Source: Actinomycetota bacterium (GTDB lineage: Bacteria; Actinomycetota; Actinomycetes; S36-B12). From it: a stretch of DNA of 55,876 bases. Below are positions 41,966 to 55,821 of the stretch, piece after piece (the first letter of the stretch is position 1; every line of letters begins with the position of its first letter). The notes under the pieces are model-generated. The model saw only the letters and a list, made by a program, of their open reading frames with translations. It was not told the DNA's origin and did not search any database. The stretch is taken from contig CANFTO010000002.1 in assembly GCA_947449945.1 (NCBI GenBank), positions 1-55,876 of the forward strand, read 5' to 3'. A program made the translations under genes and the position numbers.

Positions 41966-42505
41966 GTGAACACCAAGCGCCATGCAACTCCAGGCTCTCT
42001 GCGTCTGTTTCGTGGCGCCGTGCTCACATCGGCAATGCTGGCACTCACCACAGCGGTCCACACCCAAGTTCACGGCGCCTTGCCCAGCATCGGAACCTTG
42101 GTCATGATCACGCCACTGGTCCTTGTTCTCAGCACGCTGTTTCTAGGCCGCCAACGTGGCTACGGGTTGCTCATTGCCTACAGCGTGGGCACTCAGGCCC
42201 TACTGCACACGCTCCTGACAGTTGGCGCTGGCCACGGCTCCCATCACGACTCGCTCCTACCATCAACACCAATGCTGCTCGGGCACCTTGGTGCCGCCAT
42301 GCTGACCGCTCTGGTGTTGGCCCGTGGCGAAGCTGTGTTAAATCGATGGGTAGAACTCCTACGAACTGCACTCTTTCGTGGCTTCACTCTTTCGTTGCCT
42401 GTGCGACCAGCCCATCGCGGATTATTCGGCGAAGTTCGCACGATTCTTACCTCGTACGACCTCGACCACGCGATTCATCGTCGTGGCCCTCCAATAGTGA
42501 TCTGA
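41966..42505 (+). CDS. hypothetical membrane protein with a His-rich loop (first gene of the copper cluster)
   Basis: Three or four TM helices, a GAGHGSHHDS loop and a C-terminal HRRGPP. The start is uncertain (GTG 41966 or ATG 42035). I recognise no family. Confidence 0.45.
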   Translation: MNTKRHATPGSLRLFRGAVLTSAMLALTTAVHTQVHGALPSIGTLVMITPLVLVLSTLFLGRQRGYGLLIAYSVGTQALLHTLLTVGAGHGSHHDSLLPSTPMLLGHLGAAMLTALVLARGEAVLNRWVELLRTALFRGFTLSLPVRPAHRGLFGEVRTILTSYDLDHAIHRRGPPIVI

Positions 42506-42579
42506 AACTCATTCGCGTCGGCGCCCATGCGTTGGCGCTTCCTTTGAATTCTCACGTTTACTTTTGGAAGGTTTTATCA

Positions 42580-43308
42580 ATGCGTAACAATGTTCGTAAG
42601 ACAGCTATCCGTTCAATTGCCGTTACCGGTGCACTCATCGCTGGTGCAGTCGTCCTTGCAAATCCAGCAAGCGCGCACATGGGTGTTGACACTCACGGAG
42701 CAACATTGACTGCAGGCAAGGGTGCCACGATTTTCTTGCGCCCAGGTCACGGTTGCATGGGCGATGCAACCAACACCATCACTGTCACAATTCCCGAGGG
42801 TGTCACTGGTGTGAAGCCACAGCAAAAAGCGGGTTGGGTAACAACCAGCACTCCGACAACTGTTTCTTGGAGTGGCGGCGCATTACCGGATGATCAGTTT
42901 GATGACTTTGGAATCAAGCTCACGTTTCCAAAACTCCCAGCTGGCCAAACCTCAGGTCCGGTCTACTTCAAAACTGTTCAGGTCTGCGATGCCGAAATTA
43001 AGGTAAAGAAGTCTGGTAAAGATGCCACAGTGACCGGAACATTGCCATCTTCGGCAGGTAAAAGTGCTGCTCTTTTCGTCGACGGAATTCCGTTGACTAA
43101 GCGCGATATCGCAATCGGTGCAGACGGATCATTCACGTTGAAGACATCATCAGCAAAAATTAAGGATGGCGCGAACGTCACTGCCAAGGTTGACGGACGT
43201 TTGGTTGGCAACTCAATGGCTGGCCAAGAAGCCTGGATCGAAACTCCAGTTGCTGGATCGACAGCAAGCCTGGCTTCGCCTGCACCTTCAGTGACGATAA
43301 CCGCGTAA
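42580..43308 (+). CDS. YcnI/DUF1775 family copper-binding protein (secreted)
   Basis: ATG at 42580 after GGAAGG. Signal peptide ending in ASA, then a mature N-terminal His (HMGVDTHGA). DUF1775 strings: FLRPGHGC, AGWVTT, DDFGIKLTFP, EAWIE...PAPSVTI. Confidence 0.8.
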   Translation: MRNNVRKTAIRSIAVTGALIAGAVVLANPASAHMGVDTHGATLTAGKGATIFLRPGHGCMGDATNTITVTIPEGVTGVKPQQKAGWVTTSTPTTVSWSGGALPDDQFDDFGIKLTFPKLPAGQTSGPVYFKTVQVCDAEIKVKKSGKDATVTGTLPSSAGKSAALFVDGIPLTKRDIAIGADGSFTLKTSSAKIKDGANVTAKVDGRLVGNSMAGQEAWIETPVAGSTASLASPAPSVTITA

Positions 43309-43322
43309 GGGATACTGAAAAT

Positions 43323-43970
43323 ATGCGTAAAGCCCTCGTGGCTGTAGTGCTGGGTTCACTGGTTCTCCTAGTGAACCCAGCATCTGCATCAGCCCATGCC
43401 GATCTGAATTCAAGTGTGCCAATCAATGGCGCGGTGATTTCTCGCGCCCCTGACAAGGTTGTGCTGACATTCAGCGAACCAGTCGAACTTCAAAGTGCTC
43501 AACTGTTCAACAGCGCGGCAAAACTCATATCAAGCAATGCAAAAATCTCAGGTTCTTCGCTCACGATTACGCCCACTGCAGCTCTTTCTGCTGGCACCAA
43601 CGTCGCTCAATGGGCAGTGAAGTCTGATGATGGACACGTGGTGAGCGGAGCTATCGCATTTGTTATAGGTAAGGCCGTCAAGCAATCAACGGTAACCGCA
43701 ATAAAGACCATGCCTGTTGTCAGTACCTCACTTAACGGCAATCACGTTGGTCAACTTGTTCTCACCATGACCTCGGCATTAACCAGCGGCGAGATCGAGT
43801 GGACAAACCCAGCACTTGCAGGCCCCATCACTTGGCGAGCAACCGGCAATGGCAAGAAAGTAACGTCTAATGGTGTTCTGCCATTTCCTGGCAACTGGAC
43901 CATGAGCGCAACCTTGGTGGGTAAAGGTGGCAGCGTGCTCATCACTACGGGAACGGTGAACCTTGTTTAA
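43323..43970 (+). CDS. CopC-domain protein with an extra C-terminal beta-rich domain
   Basis: Signal peptide ending in ASA-H, then HADLNSSVPINGAVISRAPDKVVLTFSEPVE and SDDGHVVSGAIAFVIG, the CopC Cu(II)-site pattern. Confidence 0.75.
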   Translation: MRKALVAVVLGSLVLLVNPASASAHADLNSSVPINGAVISRAPDKVVLTFSEPVELQSAQLFNSAAKLISSNAKISGSSLTITPTAALSAGTNVAQWAVKSDDGHVVSGAIAFVIGKAVKQSTVTAIKTMPVVSTSLNGNHVGQLVLTMTSALTSGEIEWTNPALAGPITWRATGNGKKVTSNGVLPFPGNWTMSATLVGKGGSVLITTGTVNLV

Positions 43971-44484
43971 GTTCTGTGTTCGCGTATTGGCTACTGCACT
44001 TCTTGCTCTTGGCCTGGTGCCGCTCGCCGCTTCCGCTAGTCAGGCGCATTCGCAGTTGGTTTCGTCAACACCCACGAATGGTGCAACACTGGCTACTGCC
44101 CCGACACAAGTCTCGTTCACTTTTGATGAAAATCTCTTGCCCGATCTCGACACTATTTCCATCAATACTGAACTTGGTGAAAACGTGGCGAGCAAGCAGA
44201 TTGAGCCAGTCGCCAACAGCCTGTCTATCCCATGGCCAAGCACGATTACTTCAGGTACATACCAAGTGGCCTATCGAATAGTCTCCGGCGATGGCCATCC
44301 AGTGACTGGTGCGATCACGTTCACGATAGGGACAGCATCAGCCTCGCCCAATGTCACAAAGGACGTCACACAAACTCAGGATGGTCCACCAACAGCCACG
44401 ATTCTTTCCGTAGTGGCATTCATCGCGGCAATGGTTTCAATCGGCCTCATCGTGATGTTGGCCAGGCGCGGTAAGGAGTCGTAA
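43963..44484 (+). CDS. CopC-domain protein with a C-terminal membrane anchor
   Basis: AHSQLVSSTPTNGATLATAPTQVSFTFDENL and YRIVSGDGHPVTGAITFTIG, with a C-terminal TM helix (ILSVVAFIAAMVSIGLIVML). There is an 8-nt overlap with the preceding CopC gene. Confidence 0.8.
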   Translation: MFKFCVRVLATALLALGLVPLAASASQAHSQLVSSTPTNGATLATAPTQVSFTFDENLLPDLDTISINTELGENVASKQIEPVANSLSIPWPSTITSGTYQVAYRIVSGDGHPVTGAITFTIGTASASPNVTKDVTQTQDGPPTATILSVVAFIAAMVSIGLIVMLARRGKES

Positions 44485-44837: not shown

Positions 44838-45668
44838 TTAACTCGAGGAAGGTGCTGCCTTGAATTCCTGAGTTGCGAACGAATCATCGTCTGCAAAGCT
44901 CTTCTCACGAGCGATCTTGTAAATCAAAAGACCGAATGCGCATTTGGCTAAAATATCGGCAATTGAATATCCCACCTGGCGGTAGACGAATGAGTCCGCA
45001 CCGTCCCAGCCAAACATTGGGAACATGTATGAAATTGGATACACGCCCCATGTTGCGAGAAGTAGCCAACGAAGACCACTGAGGTCCTTGCCTACTTGGT
45101 TCGGTTGGGACTTGGCGGCACGATTGAGCTCTACGAAAAGTACGAAGAGAATGTAGAGGAACGGAATCGTTGAAAGGGCTCCCCACACGGCCTTTACGCC
45201 ATTGTCCGATGCAAGTTCACCTGGGTATCCAAGAATGATCATCAATGCAGAAGCTGGGATCAACTTCAGTAGAAGTGACTTGCGAACCTTCGGGGCCAAT
45301 GCAAGCACGGCAATGGTTTCGAAGAGCAAAAGCGGCACAGTGAGCAGCCAGTCAACGTAGCGATAGCCCTCGTTGAAGCCTGCACCATTCACGAGTGCGT
45401 ATTTCATTCCATCGGCAGATGCAGCCAGCTCACCGGCGTCGATTGAGACATAACCCTCGGTGAATGAATTGAAAATTCGGTAATAGTGGTATGCAGCAAT
45501 GAGGCAGACCATCGCTGAAACCACGAGTGCCTGACGGTACCGAGGTAATACACGGCCCTGTACAACCAATAAAAACACGAAGGTTGCCAACATTGCAGCT
45601 AACGCGAACGATAAAACGTTATAGACAGTTTGATACTGGGAATACGACAGTTCTAAAACGGAACTCAC
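44838..45668 (-). CDS. type-1 microbial rhodopsin, xanthorhodopsin/actinorhodopsin clade, outward proton pump (DTE motif)
   Basis: RYVDWLLTVPLLLFE gives D106/T110/E117 with L114. Also AAYHYYR (His61), LGYPGE, LSTIPF, LLLATWGVYPISYM and GYSIADILAKCAFGLLIY (D238, Schiff-base K242). GTG start 6 nt after GGAGG. Confidence 0.92.
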   Translation of the reverse strand: MSSVLELSYSQYQTVYNVLSFALAAMLATFVFLLVVQGRVLPRYRQALVVSAMVCLIAAYHYYRIFNSFTEGYVSIDAGELAASADGMKYALVNGAGFNEGYRYVDWLLTVPLLLFETIAVLALAPKVRKSLLLKLIPASALMIILGYPGELASDNGVKAVWGALSTIPFLYILFVLFVELNRAAKSQPNQVGKDLSGLRWLLLATWGVYPISYMFPMFGWDGADSFVYRQVGYSIADILAKCAFGLLIYKIAREKSFADDDSFATQEFKAAPSSS

Positions 45669-45854: not shown

Positions 45855-46133
45855 TTAGCAGCCACCAGCAACGGCAGGAATGATCGAGATTTGCGCGCCA
45901 TCGGCGGTTGGTGAGTTCAAGCTGTCAATGAAGCGCACATCGTCATCATTGATATAGATGTTGACGAAGCGACGAAGCGCACCATTGTCATCAAGTACAC
46001 GTGCGGCGATGCCTGGGAACTGTGCTTCAAGGTCGTTGATCACTTCCTGAAGGGTTGCACCAGTTGCAGTCACCTCTGCCTCGCCACCGGTGTAGGTGCG
46101 AAGAATGGTTGGGATGCGAACGGTTGCGCTCAT
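45855..46133 (-). CDS. metO: MoaD/ThiS/CysO-family sulfur-carrier protein ending in GGC (MetO-like)
   Basis: VRIPTILRTYTGG...FVNIYINDDDVRF...IIPAVAGGC. It is a close paralogue of the CysO at 55030-55302. The ATG overlaps the stop of the ThrC-like gene (ATGA). The final TGC Cys codon followed by TAA was checked on the DNA. Confidence 0.8.
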   Translation of the reverse strand: MSATVRIPTILRTYTGGEAEVTATGATLQEVINDLEAQFPGIAARVLDDNGALRRFVNIYINDDDVRFIDSLNSPTADGAQISIIPAVAGGC

Positions 46134-47413
46134 GATGTGATCTCCTTGTAAGCAGCTTCGAAATCGTCGTATGACGGTGAAACAGTGATCGTTGGTCCAG
46201 AGGTTGGTGCAACAGCGTCAAGTGTCTTGAGGCCATCACCGGTATTGAGCAGCACAACTTCAGCTGCAGGATCGATTAATCCTTCACGCAGGAGCTTGCG
46301 GTACGTGCCGACGACTACCCCGCCTGCCGTTTCGCCAAAGATGCCTTCAGTTTCAGAAAGCAACTTGATGCCTTCAATAACTTCTTCATCAGTGACGTCA
46401 GCAAGAGCACCTTGCGTGCGGCGTACGACGTCCAATGCATACGGGCCGTCTGCTGGGTTACCAATCGCAAGTGACTTCGCGATGGTGTCTGGCTTGACTG
46501 GTTTGATGAAATCTTGTCCAGCAGCAAAGGCTTGCGATACTGGTGAACAGCCTGTTGCCTGAGCACCATAAATCTTGTAATCATGATCACTCACCAGACC
46601 AAGATCAACAAACTCACGGAATGCCTTATCGACCTTGGTCAACAGCGATCCGGAAGCAACTGGTGATACCACTGCATCAGGAAGACGCCAGCCCAGTTGT
46701 TCTGCGATTTCGTAACCAACAGTCTTGCTGCCCTCCGCGTAGTAAGGGCGAAGGTTGACGTTCACAAAACCCCAGTTACGTGATGCAGCAACTTCAGTAC
46801 ACAAACGGTTGACGTCGTCGTAGTTACCGCCGATAGCAACGAGTACACCGCCATACACAGCGGTGGTCACAATCTTTCCGGCTTCAAGGTTGGAAGGAAC
46901 AAACACCACTGACTTCAAACCTGCGCGAGCAGCAGCCGCTGCCACAGCATTTGCAAGGTTGCCTGTTGAAGCACAAGCAATAGTTTCAAAGCCAAGGCGG
47001 CGTGCATTTTCTAGTGCAACGGCAACAACGCGATCCTTGAAGGAGTGCGTTGGGTTACCTGAGTCGTCTTTCACCCACACCGTTTTTGCACCAAGCGCAG
47101 CCGCGAGGTTGTCAGCCTTGACCAACTTCGTGAGCCCAGGTTGTAGGCCTGGACGATGTCCTGCACCTGGAATCACAGGAAGTAATGCTTCATAACGCCA
47201 CATTGAAAGTGGGCCAGCTTCAATTGCTTCGCGGGTGAGCCCACGAGCTTCGTAGGCCACTTCAAGTGGACCAAAGCATTCGAAGCAGGCGTAGCTGGCA
47301 TCCAATGGATACAGCGCACCGCATTCGCGACACTTCAGGGCGTGGGCAGCACCAAGTTCAGGGTTGGTACCCAAAGTTGCAGTCATATGTACGAGGCCTT
47401 CCTTCTCGCTCAT
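46130..47413 (-). CDS. metM: threonine-synthase-family PLP enzyme with an N-terminal Zn ribbon (MetM-type, predicted homocysteine synthase)
   Basis: Ribbon CRECG...CFEC and PLP-lysine motif NPTHSFKDR. It is preceded by a SAM-I riboswitch and translationally coupled to a sulfur-carrier gene. Confidence 0.75.
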   Translation of the reverse strand: MSEKEGLVHMTATLGTNPELGAAHALKCRECGALYPLDASYACFECFGPLEVAYEARGLTREAIEAGPLSMWRYEALLPVIPGAGHRPGLQPGLTKLVKADNLAAALGAKTVWVKDDSGNPTHSFKDRVVAVALENARRLGFETIACASTGNLANAVAAAAARAGLKSVVFVPSNLEAGKIVTTAVYGGVLVAIGGNYDDVNRLCTEVAASRNWGFVNVNLRPYYAEGSKTVGYEIAEQLGWRLPDAVVSPVASGSLLTKVDKAFREFVDLGLVSDHDYKIYGAQATGCSPVSQAFAAGQDFIKPVKPDTIAKSLAIGNPADGPYALDVVRRTQGALADVTDEEVIEGIKLLSETEGIFGETAGGVVVGTYRKLLREGLIDPAAEVVLLNTGDGLKTLDAVAPTSGPTITVSPSYDDFEAAYKEITS

Positions 47414-47530
47414 CTGTCCTGGTGTTACAGGTCGGAGTTGGCACCGAACTTTGATGGGCCTCGCAAGCGAGTTATCAAATAGGTTGCCGGGGCTTCAACG
47501 GGCCGTATCCCTCTGCCCCTCTGGATGAGG
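47409..47530 (-). promoter_or_regulatory. SAM-I (S-box) riboswitch, translational type
   Basis: Minus-strand RNA: CUCAUCCAGAGGGGCAGAGGGAUACGGCCCGUUGAAGCCCCGGCAACC...GGUGCCAACUCCGACCUGUAACACCAGGACAGAUGAG. It shows the S-box core strings, P2 GGGGC/GCCCC, and P1 CUCAUC/GAUGAG whose 3' strand contains the ATG. Confidence 0.85.
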
Positions 47531-47548
47531 TATTCAGTTATGAGGCAA

Positions 47549-47970: not shown

Positions 47971-48993
47971 GTGAAATTTCACCTCCCGCAATTTGGCGCT
48001 GGCTTAGGTGCCCTTGCACTCCTCTTAAGCGGTTGTGGCTCAGATTTCGGTTCTGCCGCCACCGCGGCCAACCCCCAAACTGACGGCAAGCTCCTCGTGG
48101 CCACAACGGTTTCACCCATAACCTCCATTGCTTCAAGTATCGGCGGTAACAAGGTCGATATTGAAGGCATCGTTCCCGAGGGTACGAACAGCCATACGTA
48201 TGAACCAGCTCCTCAAGTTGCCGAGTTGCTCAGCAAGGCTGACATTGTGTTCGTGAACGGCCTCAAGCTCGAAGATCCAACTGCCGAACTCGCCAAGGCG
48301 AACATGAAATCTGGTGCGAATCTCATTGAGATTGGAACAACCGTTCTTCCAGAGTCGGAATACATCTACGACTTCTCCTTCCCAAAGGCTGAAGGTAAGC
48401 CAAATCCTCACCTGTGGACCGACCCTCTGTACGCAGCCAAGTACGCGACTGTGATTCGCGATGCCTTTATTAAGCGCGATCCAAAGCATGCTGATTACTA
48501 CTCAGAAAACTTCGTGCGCTTCGACAAGAAAGCAACGGAACTTGCCAATGCTCTTCGCAAAGATCAGGCCACTGTTCCCGCAGGAAATTTGAAGCTGCTG
48601 ACCTACCACGATGCCTACGCATACTTTGCAAAGGATTTTGGATGGAATGTGATCGGCGCAGTGCAGCCCAAGAACTTTTCAGATCCCACTCCTGCTGAAG
48701 TGGCAGCGCTGATTGAGCAAGTGAAACGTCAAAAAGTGCCAACAATTTTCGGGTCAGAGGTATTTCCATCAACGGTACTTGAAGAAATTGGTCGTGCAAC
48801 GGGCGCCAAATACGAAGCCTCACTTCGCGACGACGATCTACCAGGTAACCCAGGAGAAAAAGATCACTCCTGGTTGGGTCTGATGAAGTACGACTACATC
48901 ACCATGATCAAGGGCTTAGGCGGTACCACAAAGAACCTTGAAGCAGTATCAACTGCTACAGGGAAAACAGACTCTGCGAAGTACCCACAATGA
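47971..48993 (+). CDS. metal (Mn/Zn/Fe) ABC transporter substrate-binding lipoprotein, TroA/ZnuA cluster-9 family
   Basis: Lipobox LLLSGC, plus NPHLWTDP and LLTYHDAYAYFAKDFG. There is no His-rich Zn loop, so the metal specificity is open. Confidence 0.85.
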   Translation: MKFHLPQFGAGLGALALLLSGCGSDFGSAATAANPQTDGKLLVATTVSPITSIASSIGGNKVDIEGIVPEGTNSHTYEPAPQVAELLSKADIVFVNGLKLEDPTAELAKANMKSGANLIEIGTTVLPESEYIYDFSFPKAEGKPNPHLWTDPLYAAKYATVIRDAFIKRDPKHADYYSENFVRFDKKATELANALRKDQATVPAGNLKLLTYHDAYAYFAKDFGWNVIGAVQPKNFSDPTPAEVAALIEQVKRQKVPTIFGSEVFPSTVLEEIGRATGAKYEASLRDDDLPGNPGEKDHSWLGLMKYDYITMIKGLGGTTKNLEAVSTATGKTDSAKYPQ

Positions 48994-49775
48994 CCGGCAT
49001 CGGCGTTGGGCCCGAACTCATAGAACTCAATGACGTCACCGCTGGCTACACGCACCACCCGGTACTTTCACATGTGAACTTCCATGTTCATGAGGATCAG
49101 TTCACCGGCATTGTTGGTCCTTCAGGCGCAGGTAAAACAACACTCTTGCGCCTTTTACTTGGAACATTAAAGCCAATGAGTGGGGTCATTGAAAAGAGCA
49201 GCGACCTGCGCATCGCGTATGTCCCTCAGCTTGAAACTGTGAGTTGGAACTTCCCCATCACAGTAGAAGAATGCGTGTTGATGTCACGCAAGTCCGCGAA
49301 TCTTTTACCTTGGGCAAGCAAATCAGAAAAGCAAAGCGTTTACTCGGTACTTGATCGCCTGAGCATCTCCGATCTAGCAAAGCGCCACATTCGTGAATTG
49401 TCAGGCGGACAACAACAGCGAATGTTTTTGGCACGCGCACTCCTGCGTCAACCTCAAATCATGTTGCTCGATGAACCAACAAGCGGCGTGGACGTAGCTA
49501 CTCGACATGACGTTCTCCATTTACTTGCGGACCTTCACGAAGAAGGCATCGCGATCGTGCTGACCACCCATGACCTCAATGGCATTGCTGCACATCTACC
49601 CCACCTAGTGTGCGTGAAACAAAGAATCGTCGCATCAGGTTCCCCTGCTGATGTCATGAACCCGGAAGTTCTCGAACAGACTTTCGGTGCCCGCATGGAG
49701 GTTCTCGAACACTTAGGCATGCGCATTGTTGTTGATGAAGCTCCGCATGGCGGCTCTATGCGAAGTGCGGGCTGA
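48990..49775 (+). CDS. metal ABC transporter ATP-binding protein
   Basis: Walker A GPSGAGKTT, signature LSGGQQQR and Walker B MLLDEPT. There is a 4-nt overlap with the SBP gene. Confidence 0.9.
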   Translation: MTGIGVGPELIELNDVTAGYTHHPVLSHVNFHVHEDQFTGIVGPSGAGKTTLLRLLLGTLKPMSGVIEKSSDLRIAYVPQLETVSWNFPITVEECVLMSRKSANLLPWASKSEKQSVYSVLDRLSISDLAKRHIRELSGGQQQRMFLARALLRQPQIMLLDEPTSGVDVATRHDVLHLLADLHEEGIAIVLTTHDLNGIAAHLPHLVCVKQRIVASGSPADVMNPEVLEQTFGARMEVLEHLGMRIVVDEAPHGGSMRSAG

Positions 49776-49776
49776 C

Positions 49777-50655
49777 ATGGAAACCTTGCTCGAACCACTG
49801 CAGTACGCCTTTTTTCAAAAAGGATTGTTTGTCGCGACACTCTCCGGCGCGCTCCTCGGATTCATTGGCGTTTTCATCGTGTTGCGTGGAATGAGCTATA
49901 TCGGCCACGGACTTTCACACTCGATATTTGGCGGCTTCGCTGCGGCCCAACTCTTTGCTTCGAGCTTCTACATTCTTGGAGCCGGCATCTGGGGTATCGC
50001 CTCAGCACTTGCCATTACTTCAGTAACCAAGCGCAGCAGACTTGGTGCCGATGCTGCGATTGGTGTTATCACCACTGCTTCGTTTGCTCTTGGAGTTGCC
50101 CTTTTTGCCAAATTCGGAACCAGCGGACCGTCTTTTGAAAATGCTCTCTTTGGCAGCATTCTTGGTATCAGTGCTGAGCAAATCATTGGCTTGATCGCGG
50201 TGTCTGTGCTCACCGGAGCATTTGTGTTCTTTCGTTATCGCGCACTGTTGTTCAGTACTTTCGATCCAGATGTAGCTGACGTTTCAGGCATCAAGGTTTC
50301 CAGAATTGAAGCCATGCTCATGATCGTGTTGTCGCTTTCTATCTTGGCCACACTCACCGTCATCGGCGTGACTCTGGTCGCAGCTATGTTGGTGATTCCT
50401 GCCGTGATTGCCCGCATGTTGACTGATTCATTCGGACGTATGCTGAGTTACAGCACGATCATTGGCGCTTTTAGCGGTCTGGTGGGTATGTATCTGAGCT
50501 ACTACGCAGGCGTTCCATCGGGAACGATGATTGTGCTCGTTGGAGCAGCGCTGTTCTTGATTGTGCTTGCCATCACCGGCACTCGCGGACTACGCAGATC
50601 TGCAGGGTTAGATTCACATACCGATGCTTCGGCACTTGCACCACTTTCTCGCTAA
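49777..50655 (+). CDS. metal ABC transporter permease (ABC-3 family)
   Basis: The ATG at 49777 lies 1 nt after the ATPase stop. The protein has 8-9 TM helices. The ORF-track start at 49726 lies inside the ATPase gene. Confidence 0.85.
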   Translation: METLLEPLQYAFFQKGLFVATLSGALLGFIGVFIVLRGMSYIGHGLSHSIFGGFAAAQLFASSFYILGAGIWGIASALAITSVTKRSRLGADAAIGVITTASFALGVALFAKFGTSGPSFENALFGSILGISAEQIIGLIAVSVLTGAFVFFRYRALLFSTFDPDVADVSGIKVSRIEAMLMIVLSLSILATLTVIGVTLVAAMLVIPAVIARMLTDSFGRMLSYSTIIGAFSGLVGMYLSYYAGVPSGTMIVLVGAALFLIVLAITGTRGLRRSAGLDSHTDASALAPLSR

Positions 50656-50685: not shown

Positions 50686-51150
50686 ATGGCACTTGCACCC
50701 AAAGACACCGCTCCAGCGTTCGCCCTAAAAAACGATGCTGGTGAGACAGTTCGGCTTTCCCAATTCAAGGGCAAGCGGGTCATCCTGTATTTCTATCCCG
50801 CTGCGATGACACCTGGATGCACGAAGCAAGCCTGCGATTTCACCGATAACTTCAAACTATTCAGCAAGCTTGATTACGTCGTGATTGGCATTTCGCCAGA
50901 TAAGCCAGAGAAACTTGCCAAGTTCCGTGAACGCGATGATCTCAACATCATCTTATTGTCCGATCCAGAAAAGGAAGTCCTGACGAAATACGGAGCTTTC
51001 GGCGAAAAGAAGCTCTACGGCAAGACCGTGGTCGGCGTTATCCGCTCAACCTTCGTTATCAGCCCATCCGGCAAGATTGAAACGGCTCTGTACAACGTAA
51101 AAGCCACTGGACATGTGGCAAAACTGATCCGCGATCTCGAACTCGGATAG
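50686..51150 (+). CDS. bcp: thioredoxin-dependent thiol peroxidase (peroxiredoxin Bcp)
   Basis: FYPAAMTPGCTKQACDF contains the peroxidatic and resolving Cys motif. Confidence 0.9.
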   Translation: MALAPKDTAPAFALKNDAGETVRLSQFKGKRVILYFYPAAMTPGCTKQACDFTDNFKLFSKLDYVVIGISPDKPEKLAKFRERDDLNIILLSDPEKEVLTKYGAFGEKKLYGKTVVGVIRSTFVISPSGKIETALYNVKATGHVAKLIRDLELG

Positions 51151-51267: not shown

Positions 51268-51903
51268 CTAGGGCAATGGCTCTAGTGCTTTTTTGGCTTC
51301 TGGAATCAATTGCGCAATAACCGGAGCAAGCGCCTGGAGCGCGCGACCACGATGACTGATCGCATCTTTCTCATCGTCTGACATTTGCGCCGTTGTTACT
51401 TGATACCCAAGCGGCATGAAAATTGGGTCATAACCAAACCCATTCGAACCTCGAGGCTCAGTAATGACCACTCCATCAAGTGTTCCTTCGACAACCCGCT
51501 CATCACCCTCTGGTGTCACGATCGCAGCCGCGCAATGGAAAGCGGCACCTCGACGGTTAGCCGGAACATGATCGAGTTGCGCAATAAGCAATGCAAGATT
51601 TGCAGCATCAGCACCGTGCGTGCCAGCCCAGCGTGCCGAATAAATTCCGGGCATTCCGTTTAACGCATCGACAGCAATCCCGGAGTCATCTGCGATTGCC
51701 GGCAATCCAGTAAACGCGCAAATCTCACGCGCCTTCAGCAGTGCATTAGCAGCAAACGAACTTCCGGTCTCATCCACATCTGGAAGGTCAGGGAATTCCT
51801 GAGTGCCAACAAGATCGATATCGAGTCCAACTTGCTCAAGAATGCGACGCAACTCGATGAGCTTGTGTGCATTCTTACTTGCTAAAACCATACGAACTGT
51901 CAT
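51268..51903 (-). CDS. rdgB: dITP/XTP pyrophosphatase (RdgB/HAM1)
   Basis: Strings MVLASKNAHKLIEL, DDSGIAVDALNGMPGIYSARW and GFGYDPIF. Confidence 0.9.
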   Translation of the reverse strand: MTVRMVLASKNAHKLIELRRILEQVGLDIDLVGTQEFPDLPDVDETGSSFAANALLKAREICAFTGLPAIADDSGIAVDALNGMPGIYSARWAGTHGADAANLALLIAQLDHVPANRRGAAFHCAAAIVTPEGDERVVEGTLDGVVITEPRGSNGFGYDPIFMPLGYQVTTAQMSDDEKDAISHRGRALQALAPVIAQLIPEAKKALEPLP

Positions 51904-51916
51904 GACTTCGTCCGAT

Positions 51917-52648
51917 CTAAAGCGCTAAAGCCTCACGCTGCATACGCGTGAGATCTGCACAGCCTTGTGTACCCAGTGCCAACAAGACATCAAGTTCAGC
52001 GCGATCAAATGGTGCACCTTCAGCTGTCCCTTGAACTTCGATAAAGCGGCCATCGCCAGTCATCACAATGTTCATGTCAGTTTCAGCGCGTACATCGTCG
52101 TCATAGTGAAGATCAAGGCGTGGAACACCATCAATAATGCCAACACTCACTGCAGCCACAGAATCAGTGAATGGATTACTCGAGAGGTACTTCTTCTCTA
52201 AACCCCAAGTCACAGCATCGGCAAGTGCAACATAAGCACCAGTGATTGCCGCAGTGCGAGTGCCCCCATCAGCCTGCAAAACATCGCAGTCAATGACGAT
52301 CGTGTTCTCGCCTAGCGTCGACATGTCGACCACCGCGCGCAAACTACGCCCAATCAAACGGGAAATCTCGTGGGTGCGCCCGCCAAGCTTGCCTTTGACA
52401 GACTCGCGGTCATTGCGCTCATTGGTTGCACGAGGAAGCATCGCGTACTCAGCGGTTACCCAGCCTTTGCCACTTCCTTTGAGCCAGCGTGGAACTCCTG
52501 GAGTGAATGACGCCGTGCACAGGACTCGTGTGCGACCAAAGGAAACCAAGGTTGATCCCTCAGCTTGCTCAAGCCAGCCACGCTGGAACGTAACTGGGCG
52601 AAGTTCTTGATCGGCACGGCCATCGGAGCGAGGGGTAACAGAAGTCAT
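51917..52648 (-). CDS. rph: ribonuclease PH
   Basis: [46 protein letters not shown] and [15 protein letters not shown] prefer the ATG at 52648 over the TTG at 52678, but the start is not certain. Confidence 0.9.
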
Positions 52649-52689
52649 GGGACAGAACTCTATTAGGCGCTTACTCAACGCCTATATTG

Positions 52690-53484
52690 CTAGCCGAAAT
52701 GGCCGACGGAACCAATCTCTGGCCCCAAGAAACGGCGCCCTAGATGTTCAAAACTTGCTGGATCGCCAGTTGCACTGAATTGATGCACAGGTTGAGGCAA
52801 TTCAGGGTCACGAAGGAGGTCATTCGCGACCAAGGTGCGATACACATCTTTTGCTGTTTCTTCTGCACTTGAAACCAAGGTCACATGTTCACCCATCACA
52901 TATGAAAGCACGCCGGTCAGCAGCGGATAGTGTGTACAACCCAACACCAAAGTGTCGATGTCCGCTTCTTGCAACGGATCTAAATACTCATGTGCAACTT
53001 CGAGTAACGAAGTCCCTGACGTTCGACCCGCTTCAACAAACTCAACGAAGCGCGGGCACGCCGCAGAAATGATTTCCAGATTTGGTGCCGCCGCAAAGGC
53101 ATCGTCATATGCGCGTGAGGTTATGGTCATCTCAGTGCCAATTACTCCGATGCGCCCATTACGTGTTGCCGCAGCAGCACGCCTCGCAGCTGGATGCACT
53201 ACTTCAATAACTGGAACGTCGTAACGTTCACGCGCATCACGTAAGGTTGCAGCACTTGCAGAGTTGCAAGCAATGACCAGCAACTTCACCCCATCTGCAA
53301 CGAGACGATCCATGATTTCAAGAGCAAATTGACGAACTTCTGCAATCGGGCGCGGGCCATAGGGTCCGCGCGCTGTGTCCCCCACATACAAGACAGGCTC
53401 GTGTGGCAACTGATCGAGAATGGCCCGAGCAACAGTTAAGCCACCGACTCCAGAGTCGACGATGCCAATCGGTGCGTCTGCCAT
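52690..53484 (-). CDS. murI: glutamate racemase
   Basis: Strings [21 protein letters not shown] and LGCTHYPLL. Confidence 0.9.
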
Positions 53485-53594
53485 AACCCCCTAAGCCTAC
53501 GGCGCGGTTGCGCGTAAATATGTCACTGATCCCTACGCTGTTGCTCAACCAGCCGCCCGCGTCCAAGGAGCGGGCGCTAACCCGAAGGAAATAC

Positions 53595-54008
53595 ATGTCA
53601 ACACCTACCAGCCCTTCCCGCCCATTCGGCGTCCTGATCGTCGCCGTTCTTCTGGTAATCGCAGCGGTTTTCAACCTCTGGATGGGTTTCCTCGCCATTT
53701 TTTCAAGCTTTGGTGAAAACCCAGCTTGGGAAGATATCTACGGCGCTTCACACACCATCGGCACCTTCCAGCTTTGGATGTTTGGCCTTCTGTCAATCTT
53801 CCTTGGCCTTATCTACATGTGGTTGATGCGTATGACGATGATCGGTTCAGCAACTGCTCACACCATCATCAGCATGTTCATGGTCATCAACATCGTGTTC
53901 GGCTTCTTCCGCCTTCCATTCGGCTGGGCTTCAATCATCATCAGCCTGCTCGTGCTCCTTATGGTCAACACCAAGGGCGCAGTGGAATGGTTCAAGCAAA
54001 CCGCGTAA
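53595..54008 (+). CDS. hypothetical four-TM membrane protein
   Basis: The ATG at 53595 follows AAGGAA. There are four hydrophobic helices and a strong terminator follows. No family is recognised. Confidence 0.5.
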   Translation: MSTPTSPSRPFGVLIVAVLLVIAAVFNLWMGFLAIFSSFGENPAWEDIYGASHTIGTFQLWMFGLLSIFLGLIYMWLMRMTMIGSATAHTIISMFMVINIVFGFFRLPFGWASIIISLLVLLMVNTKGAVEWFKQTA

Positions 54009-54020
54009 TTTTCTTCAAAA

Positions 54021-54055
54021 GAAACTGGGCTGTCGCATCGCGACAGCCCAGTTTC
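54021..54055. terminator. bidirectional intrinsic terminator
   Basis: Perfect 16-bp stem GAAACTGGGCTGTCGC / GCGACAGCCCAGTTTC with a 3-nt loop. It is followed by TTTTTTATTT on the plus strand and by TTTTG on the minus strand. Confidence 0.75.
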
Positions 54056-54070
54056 TTTTTTATTTCAAGA

Positions 54071-55302
<1,232 letters not shown>

Positions 55303-55404
55303 GACAACTCCCATCAGTCGGAACGAGTTTCCGCTACAACCTCACGATAGGGCCGCGTTTTCCTGCTGACTACTACAAAATTCCTAGTTGCCAAGGCTTT
55401 GCAG

Positions 55405-55821
55405 TTAGAGGACCTCGACCGGCTCCTCGGTCACTTCGCCATCCACGATTCGGTACGAACGAAACTCCACTGGCCCAGGCTCTTGCCCATGCTCCCGTGT
55501 GGATATCAGCACGTAATGCGCCCCTGGTTCCCCAGCCAACGTCACATCAGTTCGCGATGGATAGGCCTCTGTGGCGGTATGTGAGTGATAGATAACGACC
55601 GGCTCTTCGTCGCGATCATCCATCTCCCGGTACAGCTTGAGTAGATCACTTGAATCAAACTCGTAGAAGGTGGTCGAGCGCGCAGCATTGATCATGGGAA
55701 TGAATCGCTCAGGTGAATCACTGCCCGCCGCACCAGCCACAACACCACAGGCTTCATCAGGATGATCCGCCTTGGCATGTCCAACAATCTGGTCCACCAG
55801 TGTCTGAGAAATTTGAAGCAC
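55405..55821 (-). CDS. mec: JAMM/MPN+ metalloprotease Mec (CysO-cysteine peptidase)
   Basis: The Glu in PDEACGVV and the JAMM motif HSHTATEAYPSRTD (HxHx7Sx2D). It lies upstream of cysO-cysM. Confidence 0.85.
   Translation of the reverse strand: MLQISQTLVDQIVGHAKADHPDEACGVVAGAAGSDSPERFIPMINAARSTTFYEFDSSDLLKLYREMDDRDEEPVVIYHSHTATEAYPSRTDVTLAGEPGAHYVLISTREHGQEPGPVEFRSYRIVDGEVTEEPVEVL

What the first reader, a model, noticed from the sequence alone, without database searches (positions are those of the whole stretch)
45855..45863. The Met-pathway carrier is encoded with a C-terminal Cys cap (…AVAGG-C)
Carriers of this family must expose a Gly-Gly carboxylate for adenylation and thiocarboxylation. 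CysO at 55030-55302 ends ...PAVAGG-stop, but its paralogue here ends ...PAVAGGC-stop. I verified the TGC codon and the following TAA on the DNA. A GG-Cys amide is the same structure as the CysO-cysteine adduct that the JAMM protease Mec hydrolyses in the M. tuberculosis cysteine pathway. The precursor therefore looks like a genetically encoded mimic of Mec's natural substrate. Mec (55405-55821), the only JAMM protease in the window, could mature it. That would make methionine-carrier activation dependent on the cysteine operon and release one Cys per maturation. Capped carriers trimmed by JAMM proteases are known elsewhere, for example QbsE in quinolobactin synthesis and HcyS in Wolinella.
Basis: partly seen in the sequence, partly recalled or inferred. 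Interest (0 to 1): 0.65.

Follow-up and report, generated by a model that had tools for sequence, protein, structure and literature searches.

The report
Cysteine-capped methionine sulfur carrier (MetO)
A small sulfur-carrying protein used to make the methionine precursor homocysteine is made with one extra cysteine that must be clipped off before it can work; this was already described in Streptomyces in 2024 and is common among related bacteria, so it is real but ordinary.

Summary
The 92-aa ThiS/MoaD-family ORF at 45855-46133 (-) ends ...PAVAGG-Cys-TAA. Its paralogue CysO (55030-55302) ends at GG. The codon is not an assembly error. Contigs from independent lake metagenomes are identical there, and the 12 closest protein clusters and 52 of 80 genomes carry the same cap.

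The gene is the second gene of a SAM-riboswitch-metM-metO operon. This is the O-phosphohomoserine/thiocarboxylate route to homocysteine described in Streptomyces albulus (Hasebe et al. 2024). According to GapMind 2026, that work found that the JAMM hydrolase Mec acts as a "[MetO]-L-cysteine hydrolase" needed to mature MetO.

New here:
- The cap is the majority state: 53 of 81 metM-metO loci, counting the window.
- It has switched with plain GG about 13 times, apparently through a 3-nt indel (GGC-TGC-TGA versus GGC-TGA).
- Where present it is always Cys in these genomes; some Nanopelagicales metagenome relatives have Ala.
- Mec-linked CysO-type carriers are also often capped (25 of 62), with many different tails.

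Cleavage by this Mec is inferred, not shown. The genome-wide search for other JAMM proteases and for MoeZ could not be run. Verdict: already known, low interest.

The parts
45855..46133 (-). metO: a 92-aa ThiS/MoaD-type sulfur-carrier precursor ending ...IIPAVAGG-Cys. The TGC codon is at 45858-45860 and the TAA stop at 45855-45857.
   Evidence: It is 73-87% identical to carriers that follow MetM in 80 genomes.
46130..47413 (-). metM: a threonine-synthase-family PLP enzyme with an N-terminal CxxC...CxxC ribbon, the predicted MetO-thiocarboxylate-dependent homocysteine synthase. Its stop overlaps the metO start (ATGA).
   Evidence: PF00291 at 1.5e-71 and TIGR00260 at 267 bits. It is 60-67% identical to the MetM homologues next to MetO in Streptomyces, Kitasatospora and other non-Nanopelagicales genomes, and 90-92% to the two Nanopelagicales loci. 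The overlap is shown.
47407..47531 (-). SAM-I riboswitch aptamer leading the metM-metO operon. It reaches the annotated ATG of metM.
   Evidence: RF00162, 74.4 bits, E 1.2e-15. The same element lies upstream of metM in 18 of 18 related loci tested.
55405..55821 (-). mec: a JAMM/MPN metallohydrolase with E23, H79-S-H81, S89 and D92. It is the predicted enzyme that removes Cys92 of MetO and hydrolyses CysO-Cys.
   Evidence: PF14464 at 4.3e-29. It has the only JAMM motif in the window.
55030..55302 (-). cysO: the uncapped paralogue of the carrier, ending ...PAVAGG-stop.
54071..55018 (-). cysM: a CysO-thiocarboxylate-dependent cysteine synthase homologue, third gene of mec-cysO-cysM.
   Evidence: TIGR01136 cysKM at 350 bits, above its cutoff.

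Best explanation
The gene encodes the precursor form of MetO, the sulfur-carrier protein of the MetM/MetO route from O-phosphohomoserine to homocysteine. The operon (SAM riboswitch, metM, metO) switches off when SAM is plentiful. MetO is translated as ...Gly-Gly-Cys. The JAMM zinc hydrolase Mec is encoded 9.3 kb away in the mec-cysO-cysM operon. Its normal substrate is the chemically identical CysO-Gly-Gly-Cys amide, and it removes the terminal Cys from MetO to expose the Gly-Gly carboxylate. A MoeZ-type E1/rhodanese enzyme, not in this window, then adenylates and thiocarboxylates MetO. MetM uses the thiocarboxylate to replace the phosphate of O-phosphohomoserine.

What is shown here: the anatomy, the orthology to the Streptomyces-type loci, the intact JAMM site, and the distribution of the cap. 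What is taken from the literature: that Mec acts as a [MetO]-L-cysteine hydrolase in S. albulus. What is inferred: that this Mec does the same here.

The cap itself looks like a cheap, dispensable feature. It toggles with plain GG by a 3-nt in-frame indel at GGC-TGC-TGA. It probably costs little because a Mec-type hydrolase is needed in these cells anyway. By analogy with CysO-Cys and with Wolinella HcyS-homocysteine, Mec may also be needed to release homocysteine from MetO in every cycle; that analogy rests on my own knowledge and was not tested.
For: 1. The anatomy is ThiS-family carrier, ThrC-like PLP enzyme and SAM riboswitch.
2. All 80 genome loci found with the carrier have a MetM homologue immediately upstream, and 18 of 18 tested have the SAM riboswitch. 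This matches the S. albulus metM/metO arrangement with its upstream SAM riboswitch (PMC12172450).
3. GapMind 2026 lists MetO, '[MetO]-L-cysteine hydrolase (Mec)', MoeZ and MetM as experimentally supported in Streptomyces, and says Mec is required for maturation of the MetO terminus.
4. Mec hydrolyses the CysO-cysteine adduct in M. tuberculosis.
5. The window's Mec has the complete JAMM motif and is the only such ORF in the window.
6. The gene order mec-cysO-cysM followed by murI, rph and rdgB matches what I recall of the M. tuberculosis rv1334-rv1341 block.
7. Of 81 metM-metO loci, 53 end GGC, 27 end GG and 1 ends GGGS, with about 13 state changes on the tree.
8. Over 6.4 substitutions per site of tree length in the GGC state, the cap residue is never replaced. 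This fits a cap that must remain removable.
9. The junction reads GGC TGC TGA in 45 of 54 capped loci and GGC TGA in 25 of 27 uncapped loci. None of the 27 uncapped loci has a second stop codon behind the stop.
Against: - There is no biochemical evidence for this organism.
- The primary paper (PMC11497804) is not held, and the S. albulus MetO sequence could not be retrieved. That the characterised MetO ends GG-Cys rests on the enzyme name and one sentence in GapMind, which writes 'N terminus', presumably in error.
- Another JAMM protease or a carboxypeptidase elsewhere in the genome cannot be excluded, because the genome search was shut.
- MoeZ was not found among the 10 ORFs of 334-434 aa that were scanned, so the activating step is inferred.
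- CysO-type carriers next to Mec carry many different caps. Strict Cys specificity of Mec-family enzymes is therefore not a given, and the constancy of Cys could partly reflect how the cap arises by mutation.
Confidence: 0.8

Rival explanations
1. The cap has a regulatory or gating role. The encoded Cys is kept by selection so that methionine synthesis starts only when the cysteine operon (and thus Mec) is expressed, or so that nascent MetO is protected from premature adenylation or mis-conjugation.
For: Where a cap is present in the 81 loci it is always Cys, with no replacement over 6.4 substitutions per site. Whole clades keep it, for example Kitasatospora 6 of 6 and one Streptomyces clade 14 of 14. 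Mec lies in a separate operon from metO. In M. tuberculosis that operon is stress-regulated.
Against: The cap was lost or gained about 13 times, and at least 6-7 of these are forced by well-supported branches. GG and GGC forms coexist within single 90%-identity clusters and within the Nanopelagicales trio. The riboswitch and operon are identical in both forms. A carrier is recycled, so the cap acts once per protein lifetime.
Confidence: 0.1
2. The cap is removed by an enzyme other than this Mec, such as a second JAMM/MPN protein or an unspecific carboxypeptidase encoded elsewhere in the genome.
For: Only 56 kb of the genome could be examined. None of the 80 metM-metO loci has a JAMM gene within 4 kb, so there is no dedicated neighbour to point to.
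Against: In Streptomyces the enzyme assigned to this step is Mec itself. GG-Cys is Mec's natural substrate structure. Nanopelagicales genomes are streamlined, which makes a redundant second JAMM protease less likely; this last point is inference.
Confidence: 0.07
3. The terminal Cys is retained and takes part in the chemistry, for example as a persulfide acceptor or through an N-to-S acyl shift at Gly-Cys that yields a thioester without an E1 enzyme.
For: Cys92 is the only thiol in the protein. No E1 enzyme is encoded in the window.
Against: A third of orthologous carriers (27 of 81) lack the Cys altogether, and some relatives have Ala instead. Their core and operon are otherwise the same. The published pathway uses MoeZ.
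Confidence: 0.03

Closest known systems
MetM/MetO/Mec/MoeZ thiocarboxylate route from O-phospho-L-homoserine to homocysteine, Streptomyces albulus (Hasebe et al. 2024, Appl Environ Microbiol 90:e01247-24; summarised in GapMind 2026, PMC13759103)
   Same: The operon has the same SAM riboswitch-metM-metO layout. MetM is a ThrC homologue, 60-65% identical to the MetM homologues in the Streptomyces loci. MetO is 71-76% identical to the MetO proteins in the Streptomyces loci. The carrier is matured by the [MetO]-L-cysteine hydrolase Mec. The GG-Cys terminus is shared with 52 of 80 genomes, most of them Streptomyces.
   Different: The host is a streamlined freshwater Nanopelagicales actinobacterium, not a Streptomyces. 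Nothing has been tested biochemically here. MoeZ was not located.
CysO-CysM-Mec(+)-MoeZ cysteine pathway of Mycobacterium tuberculosis (Burns et al. 2005, as described in PMC8280819 and PMC3227635)
   Same: The same carrier family is involved (MetO versus Mtb CysO, E 4.7e-27). The same JAMM hydrolase class is involved. The encoded GG-Cys amide equals the CysO-Cys adduct that Mec cleaves. The window also holds a syntenic mec-cysO-cysM-murI-rph-rdgB block.
   Different: In M. tuberculosis the Gly-Gly-Cys species is a catalytic intermediate made by CysM, not a translated precursor. CysO itself ends at GG.
QbsE/QbsD (thioquinolobactin, Pseudomonas fluorescens), CxnE/CxnF (chuangxinmycin) and HcyS-Ala/HcyD (Wolinella succinogenes)
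   Same: These sulfur carriers are translated with residues after GG (CF; a decapeptide; Ala), and a JAMM protease trims them before E1 activation (for QbsE and CxnE; HcyS from my own knowledge).
   Different: In those systems the protease is encoded beside its carrier. Here the carrier borrows the hydrolase of the cysteine operon, and the cap is a single Cys.

Membership tests
MetM/MetO homocysteine pathway (Streptomyces type) | A ThiS/MoaD-fold carrier with a C-terminal Gly-Gly, encoded directly after a ThrC-family PLP enzyme | tested here: met
   PF02597 and PF00291/TIGR00260 hits. There is a 4-nt ATGA overlap. The same pair occurs in 80 of 80 related loci.
MetM/MetO homocysteine pathway (Streptomyces type) | A SAM riboswitch upstream of metM | tested here: met
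   RF00162 at 74.4 bits, 47407-47531. It is reported for S. albulus (PMC12172450) and found in 18 of 18 loci tested.
MetM/MetO homocysteine pathway (Streptomyces type) | Sequence orthology to the characterised S. albulus MetM and MetO | tested here: inconclusive
   The S. albulus sequences themselves were not retrievable. Identity to many other Streptomyces metM-metO pairs is 60-65% for MetM and 71-76% for MetO.
MetM/MetO homocysteine pathway (Streptomyces type) | Mec hydrolase and MoeZ E1/rhodanese present in the genome | tested here: inconclusive
   Mec is present in the window. MoeZ was not found among the 10 ORFs of 334-434 aa scanned in the window. The genome search was shut.
MetM/MetO homocysteine pathway (Streptomyces type) | Homocysteine formation from O-phosphohomoserine plus MetO-thiocarboxylate | not testable with these tools
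   This needs an enzyme assay.
Mec / JAMM (MPN+) metallohydrolases | The E-x(n)-H-S/T-H-x7-S-x2-D zinc site | tested here: met
   E23, H79-S-H81, S89 and D92. PF14464 at 101 bits.
Mec / JAMM (MPN+) metallohydrolases | Gene order mec-cysO-cysM, as in M. tuberculosis rv1334-rv1336 | tested here: met
   ORFs at 55405-55821, 55030-55302 and 54071-55018, all on the minus strand. The operon is described.
Mec / JAMM (MPN+) metallohydrolases | Hydrolysis of the carrier-Gly-Gly-Cys amide bond | not testable with these tools
   This needs an in vitro cleavage assay or intact-mass measurement.

The most novel reading that the evidence does not exclude
The single-Cys cap may be more than a tolerated by-product. 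It may be kept by selection as a checkpoint. New MetO would become competent only where Mec is active, tying the start of methionine synthesis to expression of the cysteine operon, which is redox-responsive in M. tuberculosis. This could matter in a streamlined lake bacterium that may depend on scarce reduced sulfur. The one observation in its favour is that the cap residue is never replaced over long evolutionary distances, even though the whole codon is often lost.
Probability: 0.1. Interest if true: 0.45.

Novelty: already known. Interest (0 to 1): 0.15.

Why it matters
The practical value is for annotation. The gene pair is labelled 'threonine synthase' and 'MoaD/ThiS family' or 'ubiquitin-like small modifier protein 1' in public records. 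It is in fact a methionine-pathway module, found here in one of the most abundant groups of freshwater bacteria. The survey adds two small points to the published picture. First, the GG-Cys precursor is the commonest form of MetO, but it is freely interchangeable with plain GG. Second, capped carriers are just as common next to Mec in cysteine operons. Mec-type hydrolases should therefore be viewed as general C-terminal trimmers of these carriers. No open question becomes newly testable.

Tried and rejected
- **Assembly or sequencing error.** Rejected. Independent runs give identical contigs, and the cap is conserved in relatives.
- **Reading the primary paper.** PMC11497804 is not held.
- **Retrieving the S. 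albulus MetO tail.** A look-up of 10 Streptomyces sequences across six 90% clusters did not list S. albulus.
- **Whole-genome search for further JAMM genes and MoeZ.** The tool was shut. The window's 10 ORFs of 334-434 aa are acyl-CoA dehydrogenases, a thiolase, luciferase-like monooxygenases and similar, not ThiF/rhodanese proteins.
- **Nonsense mutation TGC to TGA as the route from GGC to GG.** Rejected for the 27 GG loci, because none has a second stop directly after its stop.
- **Proving the indel by aligning downstream DNA of sister pairs.** The intergenic DNA diverges too fast. Only a shared TCG after the stop in one Streptomyces group is suggestive.
- **Strict Cys specificity of Mec as the reason for the constant Cys.** Weakened, because the caps on Mec-adjacent CysO-type carriers are diverse.
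- **A terminator after metO.** Only one weak terminator-like site was found (45766-45751), no more than chance expects.

Full report
**Observation**

On the minus strand, the ORF at 45855-46133 encodes a 92-aa protein, MSATVRIPTILRTYTGG...ISIIPAVAGGC. Its last codons are GGT GGC TGC TAA. It belongs to the ThiS family (PF02597, E 1.7e-16). It is 62% identical to the second carrier in the window, at 55030-55302 (-), which ends ...PAVAGG-stop. Against solved structures, the best match is M. tuberculosis CysO (3DWG chain C, E 4.7e-27). The two align from residue 1 to the Gly-Gly, where CysO ends, so Cys92 is one residue past the canonical terminus. Cys92 is the only cysteine in the protein.

The codon is not an artefact:
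- Contigs from two independent lake-metagenome runs match this stretch with no differences.
- The 12 closest protein clusters (87-98% identity) all end GGC.

**What the gene is**

Directly upstream, overlapping by ATGA, lies a 427-aa threonine-synthase-family PLP enzyme (PF00291 at 1.5e-71; TIGR00260 at 267 bits). In front of that lies a SAM-I riboswitch (RF00162, 74.4 bits, 47407-47531).

A scan of one genome per GTDB species with an alignment of carriers returned 80 loci:
- Every one has a MetM homologue (60-92% identity) immediately upstream of the carrier.
- None has a Mec or CysM gene within 4 kb.
- All 18 loci tested have the SAM riboswitch in the same position.

The hosts are Streptomyces, Kitasatospora, Nocardiopsis, Yinghuangia, Nocardioides and Nanopelagicales. 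The window's closest relatives are Candidatus Nanopelagicales MAGs from lakes.

This is the metM-metO module described in Streptomyces albulus by Hasebe et al. (2024). MetM converts O-phospho-L-homoserine to homocysteine, using MetO-thiocarboxylate as the sulfur donor, and a SAM riboswitch precedes metM (PMC12172450; GapMind 2026).

**The cysteine operon**

At 54071-55821 (-) lie mec, cysO and cysM:
- Mec is a JAMM protein (PF14464, 4.3e-29) with E23, H79-S-H81, S89 and D92.
- CysO ends at GG.
- CysM scores 350 bits against TIGR01136.

After an unassigned ORF on the opposite strand come murI, rph and a Ham1/rdgB gene. This matches what I recall of the M. tuberculosis rv1334-rv1341 block, whose mec-cysO-cysM genes are described in PMC8280819. 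In that pathway CysM makes a CysO-cysteine adduct, and Mec hydrolyses it. A six-frame motif scan finds no other JAMM site in the window.

GapMind 2026 lists four steps for the Streptomyces pathway, each marked as having experimental evidence: MetO, '[MetO]-L-cysteine hydrolase (Mec)', MoeZ and MetM. [quoted passage not shown] I take 'N terminus' to be a slip for C terminus, given the enzyme's name. I could not read the primary paper, and I could not retrieve the S. albulus sequence. This link therefore rests on the secondary source. The precedent of QbsE (GG-CF) trimmed by the JAMM protease QbsD, and of CxnE/CxnF, is confirmed in PMC5925218. HcyS-Ala/HcyD is from my own knowledge.

**How common is the cap?**

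| Data set | Ends GG | Capped |
|---|---|---|
| 81 metM-metO loci (80 genomes plus the window) | 27 | 53 GGC, 1 GGGS |
| 120 closest protein clusters, mostly freshwater metagenomes | 70 | 36 GGC, 13 GGA (1 more ends GS) |
| 122 representatives of 50% clusters that carry the motif | 37 | about 42 with 1-3 extra residues (C, R, A, AA, AR, S, CF...), 13 with 4-10 |
| 62 complete carriers directly downstream of a Mec homologue in metagenome contigs (CysO type) | 37 | 25 (AR, AS, Met-X, N, C, and tails up to 21 residues) |

In the third row, longer 'tails' are mostly fusions or miscalled ORFs. Caps are thus ordinary in both paralogue types. In this window, MetO happens to be capped and CysO does not.

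**How the cap evolves**

A maximum-likelihood tree of MetM plus the MetO core needs 13 changes of tail state, and at least 6-7 of them are forced by well-supported branches. Among the three Nanopelagicales loci, two end GGC and one ends GG. Single 90%-identity clusters of Streptomyces MetO contain both 91- and 92-aa members.

At the DNA level:
- Capped genes read GGC TGC TGA in 45 of 54 cases.
- Uncapped genes read GGC TGA in 25 of 27 cases.
- None of the 27 uncapped genes has a second stop directly behind its stop.

The switch is therefore best explained by gain or loss of one GCT/CTG/TGC unit, not by a nonsense mutation. This is inference; the flanking DNA diverges too fast to prove it.

The GG-Ala relatives read GGC GCG TGA. 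Synteny with cysO-cysM about 8 kb away is kept in both GG and GG-Ala relatives.

Along 6.4 substitutions per site of tree length reconstructed as GGC, the Cys is never replaced by another residue. If the position evolved at the mean protein rate, the chance of this would be about 0.002. This is a rough figure that depends on the parsimony reconstruction. It suggests that a cap is tolerated only if it stays removable. The diverse caps on CysO-type carriers mean that strict Cys specificity of Mec-family enzymes cannot be assumed.

**Mechanism proposed**

1. When SAM is low, the riboswitch allows expression of metM-metO.
2. MetO-GGC is trimmed by Mec to MetO-GG.
3. A MoeZ-type enzyme elsewhere in the genome adenylates and thiocarboxylates it.
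4. MetM couples it with O-phosphohomoserine.

By analogy with CysO-Cys and HcyS-homocysteine (my own knowledge), the product may first be a MetO-homocysteine amide that Mec must also hydrolyse. If so, the pathway depends on Mec with or without the cap. That would explain why the cap is nearly free and comes and goes. Steps 2 to 4 are inferred for this organism.

**Limits**

The genome search and the fetch from genomes were shut. I therefore could not test whether Mec is the only JAMM protein in the genome. I also could not locate MoeZ or compare cap state with Mec presence across complete genomes.

**Verdict**

However, the system and the role of Mec are already described, and the cap is widespread and labile. 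Interest is low.

Noticed in passing
window 44838-45668 (-): A rhodopsin gene (PF01036, 2.1e-39) lies directly downstream of metO. It is probably an actinorhodopsin-type proton pump, which fits a freshwater Nanopelagicales host. In the GG-Ala relative L081 this position holds a two-domain rhodanese plus a DUF1416 gene. In the GG relative L083 the CopC genes follow directly.
   Followed up: partly
window 47407-47531 (-): The SAM riboswitch match runs up to and over the annotated ATG of metM (47413-47411), and no separate terminator-like expression platform was found. A relative's MetM is called 9 residues shorter (418 aa in L083), so the true start codon is uncertain.
   Followed up: no
window 51268-55821 (-): The block mec-cysO-cysM, murI (52690-53484), rph (51917-52678) and rdgB/Ham1 (51268-51903) keeps the gene order I recall for M. 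tuberculosis rv1334-rv1341. A 166-aa ORF with no Pfam hit (53508-54008, +) sits between cysM and murI.
   Followed up: partly
loci L085-L164 (metagenome contigs with Mec homologues): Of 62 complete CysO-type carriers encoded just after Mec, 25 carry C-terminal extensions beyond GG: AR x5, AS x4, Met-X x5, N, C, and nine longer tails of 3-21 residues. The Met-X caps (ATG NNN stop) come with unusually large Mec-carrier gaps (234-1388 nt). They may reflect overlap with the start of the next gene.
   Followed up: partly
window 45858-45863 and loci L001-L080: The junction GGC-TGC-TGA contains a two-copy GCT unit, while uncapped genes read GGC-TGA. This looks like a slippage-prone microsatellite that toggles the one-residue cap.
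   Followed up: partly
window 41966-44484 (+) and 47971-50655 (+): A YcnI/DUF1775 gene and at least one CopC-domain gene (copper handling) lie on one side of the metM-metO operon. A ZnuA / ABC-ATPase / ABC-3 metal importer plus a Bcp-type peroxiredoxin (50686-51150) lie on the other side. The same neighbours recur in relatives L081-L084.
   Followed up: no
public annotation of homologues: MetO orthologues are named 'ubiquitin-like small modifier protein 1', 'molybdopterin synthase sulfur carrier subunit' or 'Sulfur carrier protein CysO'. The window's MetM scores above the cutoff of the NCBIfam threonine synthase model TIGR00260 (267 vs 167 bits). This points to systematic misannotation of a methionine pathway.
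   Followed up: no
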